A DNA stretch of 64,000 nt from a plasmid. A program made the translations under genes and the position numbers. Position 1 is the stretch's first letter. The number at the start of each line of letters is the position of its first letter. A model generated the notes under the pieces. That model saw nothing but the letters and a program-made list of their open reading frames with translations, had not been told where the DNA came from and did no database searches. Location of the stretch: the sequence record NZ_CP082905.1; one strand, 5' to 3'. This document shows positions 1 to 5,724 of the stretch, piece after piece.

Positions 1-257
1 GTGCAGCATGGGCCGCAACGTTGACGATATCGTCAATCAGCGTTAATATTGAACACAGTTAGCAGGTACAAGCAGCACCGTACAGGCAGCGGTCACCAGC
101 CGCGTCCGGTACAGAAAATTAACTCGGTTTACCAGACCGGGTTTTTTTTCGCCTCAAAGATGCCATTTCCGGCACAACTCAGATCCTATACGCATTCTGT
201 TTATTCCCCTAATTTTCACCGATGGTTTTTAGCGTCTCTTTACGCTTTTATACGCAA

Positions 258-283
258 TTCGGTAAAACGCCCATAAAACCGAA
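258..283. repeat. 26-bp palindromic site S1 (ttcggtaaaacgcc cataaaaccgaa); 12-2-12 layout resembling Hin/Gin hix/gix recombination sites
   Basis: Read directly; the left half-site ttcggtaaaacg is conserved in 6 copies, all in the same orientation. Confidence 0.6.
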
Positions 284-384
284 GCCCTTTCCGGCAGCAT
301 GTCCCTTCGGGTAGCTTTTATCTGAGTCTTTAACATAGCCCATGTGGTAGCCTGCACCGGTGGCTCTCAGAGAGGTTTATTCAA

Positions 385-603
385 TTGAAATGGTTCAAGA
401 TTTATAATCCTAAAAGTAAACAATGGCTTCAGCAAGATGAGGAAAATGGGAGATATGGCACTCGTATTATCTTCACACAGGATGAATCCCGTGCGGGGTT
501 CTGGTCTGAAACAGAAATCCGCTGGATGACCATCCCGCCAGGATCAGAACTTATTTCTTTCAGCCCGAGCCAGGAGGATATCCGATACCGGTATTGGGAA
601 TGA
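385..603 (+). CDS. small hypothetical cassette protein (72 aa), TTG start
   Basis: ORF with an agagg RBS 9 nt upstream; lies between sites S1 and S2. Confidence 0.4.
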   Translation: MKWFKIYNPKSKQWLQQDEENGRYGTRIIFTQDESRAGFWSETEIRWMTIPPGSELISFSPSQEDIRYRYWE

Positions 604-643
604 ACCAAACCGGTCAAGAGATCTTTATGCCTATTCGCCCTTG

Positions 644-669
644 TTCGGTAAAACGCCTATATTACCGAA
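644..669. repeat. 26-bp site S2 (ttcggtaaaacgcc tatattaccgaa)
   Basis: Read directly. Confidence 0.6.
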
Positions 670-696
670 CCGCAGCACTGTACAATGCCTGTCTCA

Positions 697-1344
697 TCAC
701 GCCTGATCTTCAGCTGCTGATTTACGTGCCCGTGCTGCAACACGGCTTGCGTATCTTTCCTTACGGCGTATCGCTGCTGCCGATTCGGATGCTCTTATTT
801 CTATTAAGCGTTTTCTGATGGCCTCTGCCGGATTGAACCCCTCTTCCCATGAGGTATGCCTGATGTTAAACGTCCGGCAAATATCTTCTGACAACTCGAC
901 CACATAAAGGCCATGCTTCGCATACAACTCCCGCCTCTTTGCGAAGTAAGCCGAAAAATCTGGGGGATCTTCAAAATACTCATCATCAAGATTGTCGAGT
1001 GTGTTGATGACCTGAATATGTTTAGATTCGATGCTGTGCAGCCGGTACAGCATATTAGTATTAAGGTATTTAAATTCGCCTTTTACCGCTGAGAGTTTTA
1101 GCTCTGGTTTATTATATTTCATTGACACATATTCCAACTCTTGGCTATATATACCATCATTGCTCGCAAGAAACTCACACTCGGAAATATATTTATCAAG
1201 AATAAAAACAAGCTGAACAATAATATATCTCTCTTCTTTTTTTCCTTTTTTTGTTTCCCAGACAAGCTCTTTGACTGCATTAAAAATCAGGGGTACTGCT
1301 ATCGCAGCCGCAGCCCCCAGTAATGTCCATGTTTCCTTTTCCAC
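697..1344 (-). CDS. membrane-anchored hypothetical protein (about 216 aa); proposed GTG start at 1344 with a GAGG RBS. The 273-aa track ORF extends N-terminally across site S3.
   Basis: AT-rich ORF with a TM helix LLGAAAAIAVPLIFNAV; GAGG lies 6 nt upstream of the GTG; it is the only minus-strand cassette in the array. Confidence 0.45.
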   Translation of the reverse strand: MEKETWTLLGAAAAIAVPLIFNAVKELVWETKKGKKEERYIIVQLVFILDKYISECEFLASNDGIYSQELEYVSMKYNKPELKLSAVKGEFKYLNTNMLYRLHSIESKHIQVINTLDNLDDEYFEDPPDFSAYFAKRRELYAKHGLYVVELSEDICRTFNIRHTSWEEGFNPAEAIRKRLIEIRASESAAAIRRKERYASRVAARARKSAAEDQA

Positions 1345-1445
1345 TGAAACCCTCGCCCATGCTGCAAGTATTCTTACCCTACAGTTTATACTGTACGACA
1401 GGATGGCCTGCTTAGCTTTTACCAAAGCTGACCTATCTCTCCGGA

Positions 1446-1471
1446 TTCGGTAAAACGCCAATTCTGCCGAA
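1446..1471. repeat. 26-bp site S3 (ttcggtaaaacgcc aattctgccgaa)
   Basis: Read directly. Confidence 0.55.
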
Positions 1472-1537
1472 CCGTGAAACGGCGCACGCTGCCGGCTATA
1501 ATTGCTGTCGCGATTCATTCACTAAAAGGAACAAATC

Positions 1538-1849
1538 TTGAAAACGGGATTAATTTCACTGAGCTTGCTGGCCGCCGTACTGCTTACCGGCTGCGATGCA
1601 GGCGCGCAGAGCCTTGAATGGTATAAGGCGCATGATAAGGAGCGAAACGCAAAAGTTGAAGAGTGTAAGAAAGCCTCGAATCCGCGTGGCACCGAAGACT
1701 GCCGTAACGCGATTGATGCTTCTGTTCGTGCTGGGGGCAATATTACACATAGCAAACCTAAAGAGTGGACTCTCGATGGTTCTAAGGGTTATCTGGGGAT
1801 AAGCCGCCGCGAGGCGGTTTTTTTACGCTCTTCTCCGGGCATTCGGTAA
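1538..1849 (+). CDS. small lipoprotein (lipobox LLTGC); possibly an entry-exclusion-type (TrbK-like) lipoprotein
   Basis: Signal peptide with an LTGC lipobox; Cys-containing mature region. The TrbK analogy is a weak recollection only. Confidence 0.45.
   Translation: MKTGLISLSLLAAVLLTGCDAGAQSLEWYKAHDKERNAKVEECKKASNPRGTEDCRNAIDASVRAGGNITHSKPKEWTLDGSKGYLGISRREAVFLRSSPGIR
1803..1827 (+). terminator. Rho-independent terminator (gccgccgcgaggcggttttttt)
   Basis: GC stem followed by a T7 run, immediately upstream of site S4. Confidence 0.7.
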
Positions 1850-1867
1850 AACGCCTATAAAACCGAA
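1842..1867. repeat. 26-bp site S4 (ttcggtaaaacgcc tataaaaccgaa), the most symmetric copy
   Basis: Read directly. Confidence 0.6.
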
Positions 1868-2236
1868 TTTGCCATGTAAACAAAAAATCCGCCCCAGTGG
1901 GACGGCCTAAAACGGTAAGCTGTTTTATGTCCCCAGGGGGACTTCATCTCCGATTAAAGAAAATTTTCGATTAGGGACAGTATAACTGTCACCAGATTAA
2001 TCACTGCCGTAATAAGCTCGATCATAACCCGCATCCTCATGCTGATGCGTGGCGTTTACCTACCTCCCGCCGTATATTCGCCCAGAAGGTTTCGGAACTC
2101 CGCTTTCGCTAAGAATGAAGTTAACCACACATATATTGCCCCCGGCCCAGGGATGCGACCCCCTTCGTCTGGGACTCCTTCCTTACAGCTCGTTCCCTCT
2201 GTTACCAAAAAATCAGTTCTAACTTAGGAGATTAAA

Positions 2237-2320
2237 ATGACTGATTACCGCAGTGTTGCGCGGTTTTTTACTGAAGCACTATATGGATTCATCTTAGCGA
2301 TGCGGAAGTATAAAGCGTAA
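2237..2320 (+). CDS. 27-aa peptide MTDYRSVARFFTEALYGFILAMRKYKA with a strong AGGAG RBS
   Basis: taggagattaaaATG context; flanked by a duplicated 23-bp motif gctaagaatgaagttaaccacac at about 2110 and 2381. Confidence 0.3.
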   Translation: MTDYRSVARFFTEALYGFILAMRKYKA

Positions 2321-2470
2321 GCACGACTTATCAAAGCGGGATTTGATAAGGTAGGTCATATGACGTACACTGAAAGAGCTAAGAATGAAGTTAACCACAC
2401 CGTTATGCCAGCCTGCGAAACTGACGTAACGGTAAGAAACCCTGCCCTAGAGCGGGGTTTCTGCCATCTG

Positions 2471-2497
2471 ACCGCCGCCAGGCGGTTTTTTTACGCC
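2471..2497 (+). terminator. Rho-independent terminator (accgccgccaggcggttttttt)
   Basis: GC stem followed by a T7 run, upstream of site S5. Confidence 0.7.
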
Positions 2498-2509
2498 CTT
2501 TTCCCGCCG

Positions 2510-2535
2510 TTCGGTAATACCTCAATCCTGCCGGA
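2510..2535. repeat. 26-bp site S5, degenerate (ttcggtaatacc tc aatcctgccgga)
   Basis: Read directly. Confidence 0.45.
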
Positions 2536-2664
2536 TGGTTCCCGCTGCGGCCTGTTGGTTCTGTTTTTCAAGGCTATTGTCGGGGCTACATTTAGTAATT
2601 TGAAAAACTCCACAAACTGATATGATTATCTTCATCTACCTAAGGCCAACACACAGAGCAAAAC

Positions 2665-3702
2665 GTGTCCATGCATAAATCAAAAGAACAAGTTGCAGAA
2701 ATATTGAGCGATTATTTTACTCTTTGTATTGCAATTGTGACTGAAGATTCTTCAGATTATCAAAAGCACGTTCTAACCTATCAATTTTCCCGGCAACAAG
2801 TCTTGGGGCTGGATAACGAGTTAATGCTCCCTAATTGGATTTTAGCCGCTGCAAGTATTCCTCTTTTAAAGTCTCATGTTGACTTACATGTTCAGGGGGG
2901 GGCGGGAAGTTGGGCCAGGAGACGAACTTATCTCCACTCAGTAATGGACACCATTCTGCAAACCTATAGAAATCCTGTAGCATCTAACTTTTCGCAGGCA
3001 ATGGCTGATGCTTTTAAAGCAGCTAAGTCTGCCCCACCTTCTTATCAAGACGCGGGATCATCTAACTTTTCGCAAGCAATGGCTGATGCTTTTAAAGCAG
3101 CTAAGTCTGATTCACCTTCTTATCAAGACGCGGGATCATTGCTTTTATCACAGCATGCTGAAAATTCACATAAATCCTCTTATGAACACCAGGGTAATGT
3201 CTCTTATCCATCTAAGCAACCGACAAGTGACAACATTCGTCAGGAAGAGTTAAAGCTGGGTATGTCTAATGCCGGAAGCCCAGACGTGGAAAGTAAAAAG
3301 AAGGTGTTTATAGTTCATGGCCATGATGAGCTGTTAAAAAATGAAGTATATGTTTTTCTGAGTCAGGAAGGCTATGAACCCATAATACTCCATCTTCAGG
3401 CAAATAAGGGATCAACCATCATTGAAAAGCTTGAAGAGAATATTGCAGACGTTTCGTTCGCCGTGATTTTATATACAGCATGTGATCAAGGTAAATCTTT
3501 TAAAGAGGCTGATTTGAAATCCCGTGCGCGTCAGAACGTTGTTTTTGAGCATGGGTATTTAATCTGTAAGCTTGGCAGAGAACGCGTGGCTGCCCTTAAA
3601 AGTGACGGTGTTGAAATACCTGGTGATCTCTCCGGGCTAATAACTATCCCAACGAGTAACTGGCAGTATGAACTCCTGAAAGAACTGAAAGCAGCCAATT
3701 GA
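2665..3702 (+). CDS. two-domain protein: novel N-terminal region with an internal 20-aa tandem repeat, plus a C-terminal TIR-like nucleotide-binding domain (PF10137-type, CAP12-like); candidate defence effector
   Basis: C-terminus carries KVFIVHGHDE, IILHLQANKGSTIIEKLE, FAVILYTACD, RARQNVVFEHGYLICKLGRERV and EIPGDLSGL, matching the TIR-like family signature as I recall it. An SNFSQAMADAFKAAKS..PSYQDAGS unit is duplicated (nt 2983-3048 and 3062-3127). Confidence 0.6.
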   Translation: MSMHKSKEQVAEILSDYFTLCIAIVTEDSSDYQKHVLTYQFSRQQVLGLDNELMLPNWILAAASIPLLKSHVDLHVQGGAGSWARRRTYLHSVMDTILQTYRNPVASNFSQAMADAFKAAKSAPPSYQDAGSSNFSQAMADAFKAAKSDSPSYQDAGSLLLSQHAENSHKSSYEHQGNVSYPSKQPTSDNIRQEELKLGMSNAGSPDVESKKKVFIVHGHDELLKNEVYVFLSQEGYEPIILHLQANKGSTIIEKLEENIADVSFAVILYTACDQGKSFKEADLKSRARQNVVFEHGYLICKLGRERVAALKSDGVEIPGDLSGLITIPTSNWQYELLKELKAAN

Positions 3703-3717
3703 AACAACAACCGGTAA

Positions 3718-3738
3718 CCGCCGCCAGGCGGTTTTTTT
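3718..3738 (+). terminator. Rho-independent terminator (ccgccgccaggcggttttttt)
   Basis: GC stem followed by a T run, upstream of site S6. Confidence 0.7.
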
Positions 3739-3755
3739 ACGCCCTTCTCCGGGCA

Positions 3756-3781
3756 TTCGGTAAAACCCTTATATTACCGAA
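3756..3781. repeat. 26-bp site S6 (ttcggtaaaacc ct tatattaccgaa)
   Basis: Read directly. Confidence 0.55.
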
Positions 3782-3900
3782 TCGCCCCGCTGCGGCGCTG
3801 AATACTATATGTTGTGCTTTTCCCAGCTGGCAGACATACGAGATATAGTGGTCTGACGGTCATCGCCGGGGCAGGCCGCGCCGGTTTTCCCGCTGCGCCG

Positions 3901-3936
3901 TTCGGTAAAACTCCGGCAGCGGAGGCTTTAACCGAA
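3901..3936. repeat. site S7 variant: the same half-sites separated by a 12-bp spacer (ttcggtaaaact ... tttaaccgaa)
   Basis: Read directly. Confidence 0.4.
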
Positions 3937-4023
3937 TGCGATTTACCGCCAGCGGAGTTTTTCTTCTTGTCTTTTTTCAGAATCATGTCGAGAAGCACTA
4001 ATCCTATTAGGATTATCAGGTGA

Positions 4024-4140
4024 GCCCTTATGACATGTACTAATACGGTCGGTTTCGTACATGTAGAATATAGCCTGTCCGAAAGTTAGTGTTTTTAATT
4101 TCGGACATGCGCTATAATAAGTACACCTATTTCGTACACA
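4024..4140. promoter_or_regulatory. res-like accessory site and promoter region of the recombinase gene (repeated tgtac/gtaca dyads: acatgtactaatacgg...tttcgtacatgt, tttcgtacaca)
   Basis: Imperfect inverted repeats of a TGTAC core immediately upstream of the serine recombinase, as in resolvase res sites. Confidence 0.4.
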
Positions 4141-4150
4141 AAATAACTAC

Positions 4151-4747
4151 ATGTCACGAGTCTTTGCCTACTGCAGGGTATCGACCCTCGAACAGAACAC
4201 TGAAAACCAGCGTCGTGAAATCGAAGCGGCCGGCTTTGCCATCAGACCCCAGCGACTGATTGAAGAGTACATAAGTGGTTCAGTCGCGGCTGCTGAACGC
4301 CCTGGATTTATGCGTCTCCTTGATCGAATGGAAAACGGGGACGTTTTAATCGTAACGAAGCTGGATCGCCTCGGGCGAAACGCCATGGATATCAGAAAAA
4401 CCGTTGAGCTACTTTCTGCGTCAGAAATACGGGTACACTGCCTGGCGCTGGGAGGGGTAGACCTCACCAGTCCGGCCGGAAAGATGACAATGCAGGTAAT
4501 CTCGGCGGTTGCTGAATTTGAGCGCGATCTGCTACTTGAACGTACACATGCTGGTATTGCGCGGGCTAAGGCATCCGGAAAGCGTTTCGGCCGCCCGCCG
4601 GCTCTGGATGACGAACAAAAGAAAGCGGTGTTCTTGCGTCTTAGTGAAGGGAAGAGTATCAGCGCGATCGCCCGCGAATTTGACACCACACGGCAGACCA
4701 TTTTAAGAGTGAAAGCGATAATGGAAGACGCTGATGCTCGTTCATGA
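4151..4747 (+). CDS. serine recombinase (resolvase/invertase family) with a C-terminal HTH
   Basis: N-terminal YCRVSTLEQ catalytic-Ser motif, an LDRLGR motif, 198 aa in total, C-terminal HTH. Confidence 0.85.
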
Positions 4748-4839
4748 GTTGCTTTTCTGCGTATGTCCGCTTTGTGCCATAAGCGGACGTTATTCCGATA
4801 ACAAAGAGCGGAACAACGAAGAATATAAATAGCTAAACT

Positions 4840-5724
4840 TCAGATTTTCAGTATATCAATGACGACTCTCAGTGCCGGCGACACATTGCGGTGAGGATAA
4901 TACAGGAATGAACCTTCCAGGCGCTGGCTGTAACGTGGCAACGCCCTGATAAGATTGCCTTGCTCTAAATCATCAGCGACCAGTTCCTCCGGGACATAAG
5001 CCAGCCCCAGCCCCAGTCTGGCTGCTTTTGCTTCCATGTAGCTGTCAGAAAAGGCCCACTGTCCTTGTGGTCGGTGCGTTATTTTTTTACCGTCCTGAAG
5101 GAGTTCCCACTGATAAAGGCTACCATCGGCAAACTGGTAGGCTATACAAGGATGAATCACTAAATCAGCCGGTGTTTGTGGAAAGCCATAGCGACGAAAA
5201 TGCTCGGGCGTAGCTACAACAACCATCTCCATGTCAGGTGTAATACGCACCGCGACCATGCCCTGTCCTACCTCCGGCCCCAGCCGCACGCCGGCATCAA
5301 ACCGCTCAGCGATAATATCGACGAACCGGCTTTCACTGATGAGTTCAAGCCTGATATCGGGGTAACGGTGCTTAAATAGCGCCAGCTTCGGTAAAAGAAC
5401 TTTATCAATAGCATGCTGGCTGGCATTGATGCGTACCGTACCGGACGGGGTATTCCGGTAATACGCCAGCGTGGCAAGACCCGTATCTAAAGCATCAAAT
5501 CCGGATTCTGTTGTCTGATACAGTTGCTCACCTGCCTGTGTTAACGACAGCCTGCGCGTAGTGCGAACCAGAAGCTGTATACCCAGCCTTTCTTCAAGTT
5601 CACGGACAGAACGACTAACGCCTGATTGTGCAAGTCCAAGACGATGTGCCGCTGCAGTGAAACTGCCCTCCCGCACCACCTGCATAAACAAGTAGAGCTC
5701 ATTATAGTTTTCCCGTTTTGCCAT
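4840..5724 (-). CDS. LysR-family transcriptional regulator
   Basis: N-terminal HTH (LYLFMQVVREGSFTAAAHRLGLAQSGVSRSVRELEERLG) and a LysR substrate-binding fold. Confidence 0.85.
   Translation of the reverse strand: MAKRENYNELYLFMQVVREGSFTAAAHRLGLAQSGVSRSVRELEERLGIQLLVRTTRRLSLTQAGEQLYQTTESGFDALDTGLATLAYYRNTPSGTVRINASQHAIDKVLLPKLALFKHRYPDIRLELISESRFVDIIAERFDAGVRLGPEVGQGMVAVRITPDMEMVVVATPEHFRRYGFPQTPADLVIHPCIAYQFADGSLYQWELLQDGKKITHRPQGQWAFSDSYMEAKAARLGLGLAYVPEELVADDLEQGNLIRALPRYSQRLEGSFLYYPHRNVSPALRVVIDILKI

What the first reader, a model, noticed from the sequence alone, without database searches (positions are those of the whole stretch)
2665..3702. Cassette-borne protein with a C-terminal TIR-like (PF10137-type) domain and an internally duplicated sensor-like N-terminus: candidate single-gene defence effector
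The last roughly 120 aa carry the string of motifs (VFIVHGHDE .. IILHLQANKGSTIIEKLE .. FAVILYTACD .. RARQNVVFEHGYLICKLGRERV .. EIPGDLSGL) that I associate with the TIR-like nucleotide-binding domain of CBASS CAP12 / Pycsar-type NADase effectors. It is fused to a roughly 230-aa N-terminal region of no recognisable family. That region contains an exact 20-aa tandem duplication (SNFSQAMADAFKAAKS-x-PSYQDAGS, twice) and a low-complexity linker. The gene is a stand-alone cassette bounded by terminator plus 26-bp site modules. There is no adjacent cyclase, so it does not look like a canonical CBASS or Pycsar operon. That points to an orphan or new architecture.
Basis: partly seen in the sequence, partly recalled or inferred. 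Interest (0 to 1): 0.75.

Follow-up and report, generated by a model that had tools for sequence, protein, structure and literature searches.

The report
Plasmid cassette encoding stand-alone TIR NADase
This is a real, intact gene for a stand-alone TIR-type NAD-degrading protein of a family already listed as a candidate anti-phage defence, so the gene is fairly ordinary; the array of swappable gene cassettes it sits in may be the more interesting feature.

Summary
The ORF is real, but it most likely starts at ATG 2671 (343 aa), not GTG 2665. Its C-terminus is a confident PF10137 CAP12/Pycsar-type TIR domain (E=3.8e-37). It keeps every NADase active-site residue that I could map from the TIR-STING structure. 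The whole protein matches PADLOC candidate single-gene system PDC-S35 (E=2e-63). An identical protein is annotated in Mixta.

The N-terminus is not a duplicated sensor. It is a conserved helical bundle of about 100 aa with no recognisable relatives, found only fused to this TIR. After it comes a disordered, hypervariable linker. The 78-nt (26-aa) tandem duplication lies in that linker and occurs only in this allele.

No cyclase, STING, SAVED, cNMP-binding or ThsA partner is present.

The cassette claim holds. Terminator plus 26-bp site modules flank the gene. One related plasmid lacks exactly this unit, and another has it in a different order. Neighbouring cassettes elsewhere carry CBASS, BstA and PDC-S67.

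Most likely function: a single-protein abortive-infection NADase, activated when TIR domains are clustered through the N-domain, as in SpbK or E. coli TIR-V/IX. This is untested.

Verdict: a new member of a known kind, of modest interest. The cassette array deserves separate follow-up.

The parts
2470..2493 (+). Terminator-like hairpin (GACCGCCGCCAGGCGGTT + T-run) ending the preceding cassette; first half of the left boundary module
   Evidence: (terminator scan), family D2, alignment
2510..2535 (+). Degenerate copy of the 26-bp site (TTCGGTAATACCTCAATCCTGCCGGA, 3 mismatches); left boundary of the TIR cassette
   Evidence: aligns with the intact site upstream of the TIR gene in L011
2600..2629 (+). 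Cassette-internal sigma-70-like promoter (TTGAAA - 18 nt - GATTAT)
   Evidence: This stretch down to the ATG is conserved in three different contexts (window, L011/L012, L013), while the sequence further upstream diverges
2671..3702 (+). GC is 41.7% against 54.7% for the window
2671..2970 (+). N-terminal conserved helical-bundle domain (residues 1-100) with motif GGxGSWxRRRxY; invariant P54, W56, G77, G79, R84
   Evidence: conservation; pLDDT about 90-93, five helices; no family or specific fold relative; only 17 representatives in 1.84 billion proteins
2971..3291 (+). Disordered S/A/K/Q-rich linker (residues 101-207), hypervariable in sequence and in length (33-107 aa) among homologues
   Evidence: pLDDT <50 for 104-206; 20% pairwise identity
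2981..3136 (+). Tandem 2 x 78-nt in-frame duplication (26-aa unit SNFSQAMADAFKAAKS[AP/DS]PSYQDAGS) inside the linker; specific to this allele
   Evidence: D4, 95%; 74/78; absent from P0002-P0042
3301..3654 (+). PF10137 CAP12/Pycsar-type TIR domain (residues 213-330 in 345-aa numbering)
   Evidence: E=3.8e-37; Foldseek matches to TIR-STING 9lmq/7un8, SARM1 TIR
3547..3549 (+). Codon of the predicted catalytic glutamate (E295 in 345-aa numbering, E293 in 343-aa numbering) in NVVFEHG; aligns with SfSTING E84
   Evidence: alignment with 7un8; E84 catalytic; R78, N80, F6, D110 in the pocket; invariant
3716..3739 (+). Intrinsic-terminator-like hairpin 14 nt after the stop codon
   Evidence: conserved after the TIR gene in L011, L012 and L013
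3756..3781 (+). 26-bp site TTCGGTAAAACCCTTATATTACCGAA; right boundary of the TIR cassette
   Evidence: pSC7-KPC has a single module here and lacks the gene
258..1867 (+). Upstream part of the same array: sites at 258-283, 644-669, 1446-1471 and 1842-1867, all in the same orientation. They bound three small cassettes (72-aa ORF; PDC-S67-like gene 697-1341 on the minus strand; 103-aa lipoprotein-like ORF)
3901..3936 (+). Extended 'terminal' site TTCGGTAAAAC-TCCGGCAGCGGAGGC-TTTAACCGAA; always the last site of such arrays
   Evidence: (same element ends the arrays in L001, L010, L011, L013; also L076)
4151..4747 (+). Small serine recombinase (Resolvase + HTH_7) next to the array. Its own res-like inverted repeat (TGTCCGAAA...TTTCGGACA) is at 4076-4107
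   Evidence: Homology of the resolvase module in other plasmids starts at 4029/4050 and excludes the 26-bp sites. L002 has a 99% identical resolvase and no sites upstream of it

Best explanation
The gene encodes a single-protein abortive-infection-type defence effector made of three parts. The first is a 100-aa N-terminal helical bundle. The second is a long flexible linker. The third is a C-terminal TIR NADase of the CAP12/Pycsar (PF10137) clade.

Shown here: the TIR domain is intact and keeps the catalytic Glu (E295). It also keeps the equivalents of SfSTING F6, R78, N80 and D110. In SfSTING, D110 is supplied by the neighbouring TIR domain, so the active site forms only when TIR domains pack together.

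Inferred: in uninfected cells the protein is inactive. During infection the N-domain binds a multimeric phage component, or self-associates in response to a trigger. The flexible linker then lets the tethered TIR domains pack head-to-tail and complete the composite active site. NAD+ is hydrolysed, and the infected cell stops supporting phage growth.

The gene is expressed from its own promoter. It travels as a discrete cassette (promoter, gene, terminator, 26-bp site) within a plasmid-borne array of cassettes that elsewhere carry CBASS, BstA and other defence candidates.
For: - PF10137 match, E=3.8e-37.
- PADLOC PDC-S35 match, E=2e-63, plus weaker hits to CBASS TIR effector and PycTIR models.
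- The closest solved relatives by sequence and by fold are the TIR domains of TIR-STING (9lmq, 7un8); PycTIR matches by sequence only, and SARM1 by fold only.
- The residues aligned to SfSTING F6, R78, N80, E84 and D110 are invariant in 26 homologues.
- Domain layout from the AlphaFold model: confident N-bundle, disordered linker, confident TIR.
- The N-domain occurs only fused to this TIR and evolves faster than it: 43% against 66% pairwise identity. The linker is at 20% and varies from 33 to 107 aa.
- No partner gene is conserved across five different contexts.
- Neighbouring cassettes or islands carry defence genes: PDC-S67 in the window; CBASS in L011 and L052; BstA in L141; Abi_2 and DpnII in IncX plasmids.
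- Low GC (41.7% against 54.7%) indicates horizontal acquisition.
- Precedent: SpbK is activated by TIR clustering on a portal dodecamer (PMC12847820). E. coli single-protein TIR-V, VI and IX are triggered by portal or tail-fibre proteins (PMC11350192).
Against: - There is no experimental evidence for this protein or for PDC-S35. A search of the paper library for PDC-S35 found nothing.
- Only 12 of 32 E. coli TIR candidates tested by Wang et al. protected against phage, so TIR plus context does not guarantee defence.
- Whether the product is NAD+ depletion or a signalling nucleotide cannot be read from the sequence.
Confidence: 0.6

Rival explanations
1. Orphan CBASS/Pycsar effector. The protein would be activated in trans by a cyclic (oligo)nucleotide made by a cyclase encoded elsewhere, for example by a CBASS cassette of the same array type.
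For: The TIR belongs to the clade used by Cap12 and PycTIR. In L011 a CD-NTase + Cap15 cassette lies in the same array, separated from the TIR cassette by one small cassette.
Against: No STING, SAVED or cNMP-binding domain was found. Pfam finds nothing in the N-terminal 210 aa, and the N-domain is a small helical bundle. NCBIfam Cap12 models score 32 bits against a 450-bit cut-off. The CBASS cassettes in L011 and L052 carry their own Cap15 effector and are separate cassettes. No cyclase was found near the gene or among the window ORFs scanned, nor in L013 or the IncX contexts.
Confidence: 0.06
2. Signal-producing TIR (Thoeris-like). The protein would make a cADPR-type or other NAD-derived messenger for an effector encoded elsewhere, rather than depleting NAD+ itself.
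For: Bacterial TIRs can act either way, and SpbK makes N1-cADPR in addition to ADPR. A 367-aa paralogue on an IncI-gamma plasmid sits directly upstream of a DUF4238 gene. Wang et al. report a validated TIR system that contains DUF4238.
Against: No ThsA-like or other conserved neighbour occurs in any context of the 343-aa-type protein. The cassette holds one gene. PF10137-clade TIRs characterised so far are NAD+-depleting effectors. PF08937 (the ThsB type) does not match, and PF13676 only reaches E=0.17.
Confidence: 0.1
3. Not anti-phage. The protein would be a plasmid-benefit NADase or TIR protein used for plasmid addiction, plasmid-plasmid competition, or interference with eukaryotic host TIR signalling (Tcp-like).
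For: PF10137-type TIR genes occur in 1146 of 72,556 plasmid records, mostly Klebsiella and Escherichia, about half of them on conjugative plasmids. The gene lies between the partition locus and the resolvase of a plasmid.
Against: There is no signal peptide or secretion context and no antitoxin-like partner in the cassette. The array partners are phage-defence genes. The Tcp-type TIR model (PF13676) is not matched significantly.
Confidence: 0.12
4. Decaying or non-functional allele. The linker duplication would mark a gene drifting towards pseudogenisation.
For: The 78-nt duplication is unique to this allele.
Against: The duplication is in frame and lies in a region whose length already varies from 33 to 107 aa. 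All conserved residues of both domains are intact. An identical protein is found on 13 contigs from several samples. The promoter and terminator are intact.
Confidence: 0.04

Closest known systems
PADLOC 'phage defence candidate' PDC-S35 (single-gene candidate system)
   Same: Five PDC-S35 HMMs match at E=2e-63 to 2e-35. They cover the linker end plus the whole TIR domain. The locus is also a single gene.
   Different: The PDC-S35 models do not cover the conserved 100-aa N-domain (best match starts at residue 133). PDC-S35 is a computational candidate, and I found no published validation.
Cap12 / TIR-STING (CBASS effector; SfSTING, PDB 7un8, 9lmq)
   Same: Same TIR clade (PF10137). It is the best structural and sequence match among solved structures. 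The residues equivalent to F6, R78, N80, E84 and the trans-acting D110 are conserved. It probably shares the rule that the NADase switches on only when TIR domains pack together.
   Different: No STING domain, no cyclic-dinucleotide receptor, no CD-NTase operon. The domain order is reversed (TIR is C-terminal here). The NCBIfam Cap12 score is far below the cut-off.
SpbK of Bacillus subtilis ICEBs1 (single-protein TIR abortive infection)
   Same: Working analogy: an N-terminal non-catalytic domain plus a C-terminal TIR NADase, encoded as one gene on a mobile element. It is activated by clustering on a multimeric phage protein (the portal YonE).
   Different: No detectable sequence relationship of the N-domains. 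SpbK did not appear among the sequence or fold matches. The trigger of the present protein is unknown.
E. coli single-protein TIR-V, TIR-VI, TIR-IX (Wang et al. 2024, PMC11350192)
   Same: Single proteins with a C-terminal TIR and dissimilar N-termini. Anti-phage activity is validated and depends on the TIR active site. Triggers are portal or tail-fibre proteins.
   Different: Identity with any of them could not be tested because no sequences were available. That survey used chromosomal DNA only, whereas this family is plasmid-borne.
Integron gene cassettes / Acinetobacter pdif modules (for the genomic setting)
   Same: One-gene or few-gene units are each bounded by a short conserved recombination-type site. 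All sites point the same way whatever the gene orientation. Units are present, absent or reordered between replicons, and their cargo is rich in defence genes.
   Different: There is no IntI integrase, no attC-type folded site and no Pc promoter; each cassette has its own promoter and terminator. The site is a 26-bp imperfect palindrome with a conserved central CC. The recombinase is unidentified: arrays lie next to serine resolvases in some plasmids and a tyrosine recombinase in others.

Membership tests
Pfam PF10137 (CAP12/Pycsar effector TIR domain) | Score above the curated gathering threshold of the family HMM | tested here: met
   127.3 bits against a 24.7-bit cut-off, E=3.8e-37, residues 213-330 covering profile positions 1-117 of 119
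Catalytically competent TIR NADase | Flavodoxin-like TIR fold, with the catalytic Glu on helix alphaC and the NAD+ pocket residues | tested here: met
   Foldseek matches to TIR-STING (E=1e-5) and SARM1 TIR. E295, R289, N291, F215 and D321 align with SfSTING E84, R78, N80, F6 and D110 and are invariant in the family
Catalytically competent TIR NADase | Measured NAD+ hydrolysis | not testable with these tools
   Needs a biochemical assay
CBASS Cap12 (TIR-STING) | STING cyclic-dinucleotide-binding domain fused to the TIR | tested here: not met
   No STING or other Pfam domain outside the TIR. NCBIfam Cap12 equivalogs score 31.9 and 24.8 bits against a 450-bit cut-off. The N-domain is a helical bundle
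CBASS Cap12 (TIR-STING) | Operon with a CD-NTase | tested here: not met
   No CD-NTase in the cassette or within about 8 kb. None among ten further window ORFs scanned
Pycsar PycTIR | Adjacent pyrimidine cyclase (PycC) and a cNMP-responsive architecture | tested here: not met
   The PADLOC PycTIR model matches only the TIR part, weakly (E=1.8e-8). PDB PycTIR 8jsj scores E=0.2. No cyclase neighbour
Thoeris ThsB | TIR of the PF08937/PF13676 type, encoded next to a ThsA effector | tested here: not met
   PF08937 is not matched; PF13676 reaches E=0.17, below threshold. No ThsA-like neighbour in any context
PADLOC PDC-S35 | Match to the PDC-S35 HMMs in a single-gene locus | tested here: met
   PDLC05005 at E=2.2e-63 and four further PDC-S35 models. 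Single-gene cassette
Validated anti-phage defence system | Reduced plating of phage when the gene is present, and loss of the effect on active-site mutation | not testable with these tools
   No published test of this family was found. Analogous single-protein TIR systems have been validated
Site-bounded mobile gene cassette (integron-like unit) | The same unit is present or absent, or reordered, between replicons, with breakpoints at the conserved sites | tested here: met
   pSC7-KPC joins window 1801-2551 to 3717-3966 through one module and has no TIR gene. L011 has the order TIR then cassette D, whereas the window has cassette D then TIR. L013 has TIR then PBECR2. In L141 the TIR gene lies between two sites
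Site-bounded mobile gene cassette (integron-like unit) | A dedicated recombinase that excises and inserts cassettes at the site | tested here: inconclusive
   Arrays abut a serine resolvase (window, L013, L011, L009) or a tyrosine recombinase (L001, L144-L146). A 99% identical resolvase occurs without sites upstream of it. The resolvase module's homology boundary excludes the sites

The most novel reading that the evidence does not exclude
The TIR gene would be one cargo of a cassette system on Enterobacterales plasmids that appears to be undescribed. In this system, self-contained units (promoter, gene(s), terminator) are each bounded by a 26-bp imperfect palindrome (TTCGGTAAAAC-SCC-N7-CCGAA, with a conserved central CC). 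All sites face the same way, and the array ends in a 36-bp extended site next to the plasmid's multimer-resolution recombinase. Site-specific recombination would shuffle the units and so build and exchange defence repertoires (TIR/PDC-S35, PDC-S67, CBASS-Cap15, BstA, PBECR2, PRTase pairs) between IncN, IncU-like, F-like and Pantoea/Erwinia/Mixta plasmids. It would be a functional analogue of integrons without IntI or attC.
Probability: 0.3. Interest if true: 0.75.

Novelty: new member of a known kind. Interest (0 to 1): 0.38.

Why it matters
The gene adds one more stand-alone TIR NADase to a growing class. Two things make it useful. It pairs a well-understood effector clade (the Cap12/PycTIR TIR, whose active site forms only on oligomerisation) with a tiny, taxonomically narrow N-domain and a naturally length-variable linker. 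That makes it a compact system for asking how a single protein couples phage sensing to TIR clustering.

The setting may matter more. If the 26-bp-site cassette array is a real site-specific exchange system, it would explain how conjugative plasmids of clinical Enterobacterales assemble and swap defence genes. It would also give a sequence signature for mining new defence cassettes.

Tried and rejected
- Rfam scan of window 1-5000 at E<=0.1 found nothing, so the repeated modules and the non-coding-looking cassette D are not a known RNA family.
- Pfam on seven diverse N-domains at E<=10 gave only noise.
- A profile search with the N-domain against 1.84 billion representatives was meant to find it fused to other effectors. 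It found only the same N-domain + TIR proteins, fragments, and a few low-complexity false positives such as a LysM protein.
- Literature searches for the site sequence, for PDC-S35, and for an integron-like resolvase-linked cassette system returned nothing relevant. The small-serine-recombinase/defence association is published (PMC13552941), but that paper contains none of the searched terms 'recombination site', 'terminator' or 'inverted repeat', and its only uses of 'cassette' refer to resistance cassettes and SCCmec.
- IncN CUP elements were considered for the repeats and rejected. CUPs lie in the ardK regulon on the other side of repA and act as promoter/ArdK-operator elements.
- The resolvase's own res site was considered as the source of the 26-bp sites and rejected. 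The res-like inverted repeat at 4076-4107 has a different half-site arrangement (my reading of the sequence), and the conserved resolvase module starts at 4029/4050.
- XerCD/dif-like sites were compared by eye. They share only a GGTAAA core with the cer XerD arm, which is not convincing.
The more specific terminator+site pattern on metagenomes worked.
- Mapping the protein to Wang et al.'s TIR-V/VI/IX failed because no supplementary sequences were held.
Full report
**Observation.** The ORF at 2665-3702 (+) exists. The first in-frame ATG is at 2671. NCBI's identical protein ('MULTISPECIES: TIR domain-containing protein [Mixta]') is 343 aa. All 25 aligned homologues begin at the equivalent Met. 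In locus L011 the GTG is GTA while the ATG is kept. I therefore take 2671 as the start. The gene has 41.7% GC in a window of 54.7%.

**TIR domain.** Pfam gives PF10137 (CAP12-PCTIR_TIR) at E=3.8e-37, 127 bits against a 24.7-bit threshold, over residues 213-330. PF13676 is not significant (E=0.17) and PF08937 is absent.
- The nearest solved sequences are the TIR domains of TIR-STING/Cap12 (9lmq E=1e-5; 7un8 E=4e-3) and PycTIR (8jsj, E=0.2).
- An AlphaFold2 model built on 26 homologues has a confident C-terminal alpha/beta domain. Its best Foldseek matches are TIR-STING (E=1e-5 to 7e-4), followed by SARM1, TLR and other TIR domains.
- Morehouse et al. define the SfSTING NADase pocket as F6, W33, F37, L47, S10, R78, N80 and the catalytic E84, completed by D110 from the opposing TIR (PMC9402430).
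- In the HMMER alignment to 7un8 (chain numbering offset 8), F6, R78, N80, E84 and D110 align with F215, R289, N291, E295 and D321 in 345-aa numbering. All five are invariant in the family alignment (F213, R287, N289, E293 and D319 in 343-aa numbering).
- The enzyme therefore looks competent. Like SfSTING, it probably needs TIR-TIR packing to complete its active site. The conservation is shown; the packing requirement is inferred.

**N-terminal region.**
- Residues 1-100 form a conserved five-helix bundle (pLDDT 88-98). It carries the motif GGxGSWxRRRxY and invariant P54, W56, G77, G79 and R84.
- A profile of the domain, searched against 1.84 billion representative proteins, found 17 hits, of which 10 were below 1e-10. 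Every full-length hit I checked carries the same N-domain plus a PF10137 TIR. The other strong hits are short proteins or fragments, and the weak tail is unrelated (for example a LysM protein). The domain is narrow and dedicated to this TIR.
- Residues 101-207 are predicted disordered (pLDDT <50) and rich in S, A, K and Q. They are hypervariable: 20% pairwise identity and 33-107 aa in length, against 43% for the N-domain and 66% for the TIR.
- The tandem duplication is 2 x 78 nt (2981-3058 and 3059-3136), with 74/78 nt and 24/26 aa identical. It lies wholly in this linker and is absent from every homologue. The closest ones are exactly 26 aa shorter. It is a recent in-frame linker expansion, not a duplicated sensor module.

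**Classification.**
- PADLOC-DB models of the single-gene 'phage defence candidate' PDC-S35 match at E=2e-63. I found no paper that tests PDC-S35. Some other PDC candidates have been tested, with mixed results.
- NCBIfam Cap12 equivalogs are far below their cut-off.
- The gene has no cyclase, STING, SAVED, cNMP-binding or ThsA-like partner. The identical contig L003 shows a Y-family DNA polymerase (IMS/ImpB-type) gene, the StbA/StbB partition genes, small ORFs, the TIR gene, a resolvase, LysR and a hydrolase. Ten further mid-size window ORFs have no CD-NTase or Pycsar cyclase hits.
- No neighbour is conserved among the homologues' contexts: a metagenomic plasmid L011, Erwinia L013, E. coli IncX plasmids L014-L018 and metagenome L141.
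- A more distant 367-aa paralogue has an extra N-terminal extension, the N-domain at 38% identity and the TIR at 58%. It sits directly upstream of a DUF4238 gene on an IncI-gamma plasmid. DUF4238 is itself a validated defence protein (PMC9122126) and occurs in one of Wang et al.'s validated TIR systems.
- PF10137-type TIR genes occur in 1146 of 72,556 plasmid records.

**Cassette setting.**
- The 26-bp element TTCGGTAAAAC-N9-ACCGAA occurs at 258, 644, 1446, 1842, 2510 (degenerate) and 3756, always on the + strand, against 0.26 matches expected by chance.
- A 36-bp extended variant lies at 3901.
- Three of the sites (1842, 2510, 3756) are preceded by the hairpin CCGCCGCSAGGCGG followed by a T-run.
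- The TIR unit has its own promoter-like site at 2600-2629. From about 75 nt upstream of the ATG through the terminator and site, it is conserved in three different neighbourhoods, while the sequence outside diverges.
- Klebsiella plasmid pSC7-KPC matches window 1801-2551 and 3717-3966, joined through a single module. It lacks exactly the TIR cassette.
- The order of units differs between replicons. In L011 it is TIR, cassette D, terminal site. In the window it is cassette D, TIR, terminal site. In L013 it is TIR, PBECR2, terminal site. In L141 a 75%-identical TIR gene again lies between two sites.
- Other cassettes bounded by the same sites carry CD-NTase + Cap15 (L011 and L052; in L052 only Cap15 was identified by Pfam), BstA (L141), a ComF-family gene with a partner gene (L010), a weakly PsyrT-like ORF pair (L141), SEC-C + hypothetical (IncN pKPC_FCF3SP), DUF2971, DUF2441 and, in the window itself, a PDC-S67 match at 697-1341 on the minus strand.
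- In 31 metagenomic loci, 69 of 70 sites share the orientation of their array, and the central positions 13-14 are C in 65/70 and 58/70 sites.
- This pattern fits site-specific cassette exchange. The recombinase is unresolved. Arrays abut serine resolvases in some replicons and a tyrosine recombinase in others. A 99% identical resolvase exists without any sites upstream of it. The conserved resolvase-plus-res module begins only at 4029/4050.
- Homologous recombination between the 65-90-bp modules is a weaker alternative. It is disfavoured because minus-strand cassettes share only the site of about 26-37 bp.
- An association of small serine recombinases with defence genes has been published (PMC13552941). 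I found no description of these sites.

**Mechanism.** The best-supported model is a single-protein abortive-infection NADase.
- The N-domain would recruit or cluster the protein in response to infection. The flexible linker would let the TIR domains pack. The composite active site (E295 plus D321 in trans) would form, and NAD+ would be consumed.
- Shown: domain identities, conserved catalytic residues, single-gene organisation, and defence-rich mobile context.
- Inferred by analogy: the trigger, the clustering step and the outcome. The analogies are TIR-STING filaments, SpbK activated on the portal dodecamer, and E. coli TIR-V/VI/IX triggered by portal or tail-fibre proteins.
- Caveat: only 12 of 32 E. 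coli TIR candidates protected in Wang et al.'s screen.
- Rivals, all less likely for the reasons given in their entries: a trans-activated orphan CBASS/Pycsar effector, a Thoeris-like signal producer, a non-defence plasmid function, and a decaying allele.

**Verdict.** It is not a new architecture in the catalogue sense, because the family is already PADLOC PDC-S35 and is annotated in NCBI. It is a new member of a known kind, and interest is modest. The most novel element uncovered is the cassette array itself, which deserves its own analysis.

Noticed in passing
window 258-3936 (sites at 258, 644, 1446, 1842, 2510, 3756; extended site 3901-3936); also L001, L009, L010, L011, L013, L052, L141-L171: An array of co-oriented 26-bp imperfect palindromes (TTCGGTAAAAC-SCC-N7-CCGAA, conserved central CC) bounds self-contained gene cassettes. 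Cassettes are present, absent or reordered between plasmids of Mixta, Erwinia, Pantoea, Klebsiella (IncU-like) and IncN. The cargo includes CBASS, BstA, PDC-S35, PDC-S67 and PBECR2. The recombinase is unidentified, and I found no published description.
   Followed up: partly
window 697-1341 (minus strand): The neighbouring cassette encodes a 214-aa protein that matches PADLOC single-gene candidate PDC-S67 (E=3e-31) and has no Pfam family. The longer ORF call (to 1518) runs across the site at 1446, so the shorter start is more likely.
   Followed up: partly
window 1868-2509: 'Cassette D' has no convincing ORF. It is 91-94% identical in pSC7-KPC and L011 and moves as a unit. It contains an exact 23-nt direct repeat (2108-2130 and 2378-2400), a minus-strand terminator-like hairpin at 1905-1889, and a 27-codon ORF (2237-2320) behind a strong AGGAG ribosome-binding site. 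It could be a small toxin/RNA module. There is no Rfam match.
   Followed up: no
window 3901-3936; L001 5850, L010 6183, L011 9726, L013 10007, L076 3814: A 36-bp extended version of the site, with a GC-rich palindromic spacer (CTCCGGSARCGGAGGS), is always the last site of an array. It faces the backbone recombinase gene, reminiscent of a primary (attI-like) site.
   Followed up: partly
window 4029-4150: The likely res region of the 198-aa serine resolvase. It has the inverted repeat TGTCCGAAA-N14-TTTCGGACA (4076-4107) and repeated TTTCGTACA motifs. It is conserved together with the resolvase gene in hundreds of plasmids and differs from the 26-bp cassette sites.
   Followed up: partly
L011 5091-6840; L052 2526-4986: Compact CBASS operons with a Cap15 membrane effector are each carried as a single cassette between two 26-bp sites, on the strand opposite to the array direction. 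In L011 the partner is a Pfam-identified CD-NTase. In L052 the adjacent 374-aa ORF is only a probable CD-NTase (no Pfam hit), and a 219-aa ORF follows it.
   Followed up: partly
L140 6695-8988 (Salmonella IncI-gamma plasmid p171-CMY-98k): A 367-aa paralogue (extra N-terminal extension + the same N-domain + TIR) lies directly upstream of a DUF4238 gene. This may be the TIR+DUF4238 two-gene system validated in E. coli by Wang et al. 2024. That would make the window protein a partner-less relative of a validated system.
   Followed up: partly
L014-L018 8001-8924 (E. coli IncX-type plasmids): A 37%-identical full-length homologue (P0039, indexed in 141 blocks of the assembly collection) sits after the topoisomerase III, Hha and H-NS genes. 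It is in the variable region together with Abi_2, a DpnII-type endonuclease and a resolvase, but there are no 26-bp sites.
   Followed up: partly
window 1538-1849: A 103-aa ORF with a lipoprotein-type signal sequence (LLTGC) forms its own small cassette. It has no Pfam or PADLOC match, and its reading frame runs into the downstream terminator.
   Followed up: no
window 20904-47081: A long run of large minus-strand ORFs (1706, 719, 956, 456, 614, 868 aa) looks like an F-type conjugative transfer region. Together with the StbAB partition genes just upstream of the window (L003), this suggests the window is part of a conjugative Mixta plasmid. This is inferred from ORF sizes only and was not checked.
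   Followed up: no
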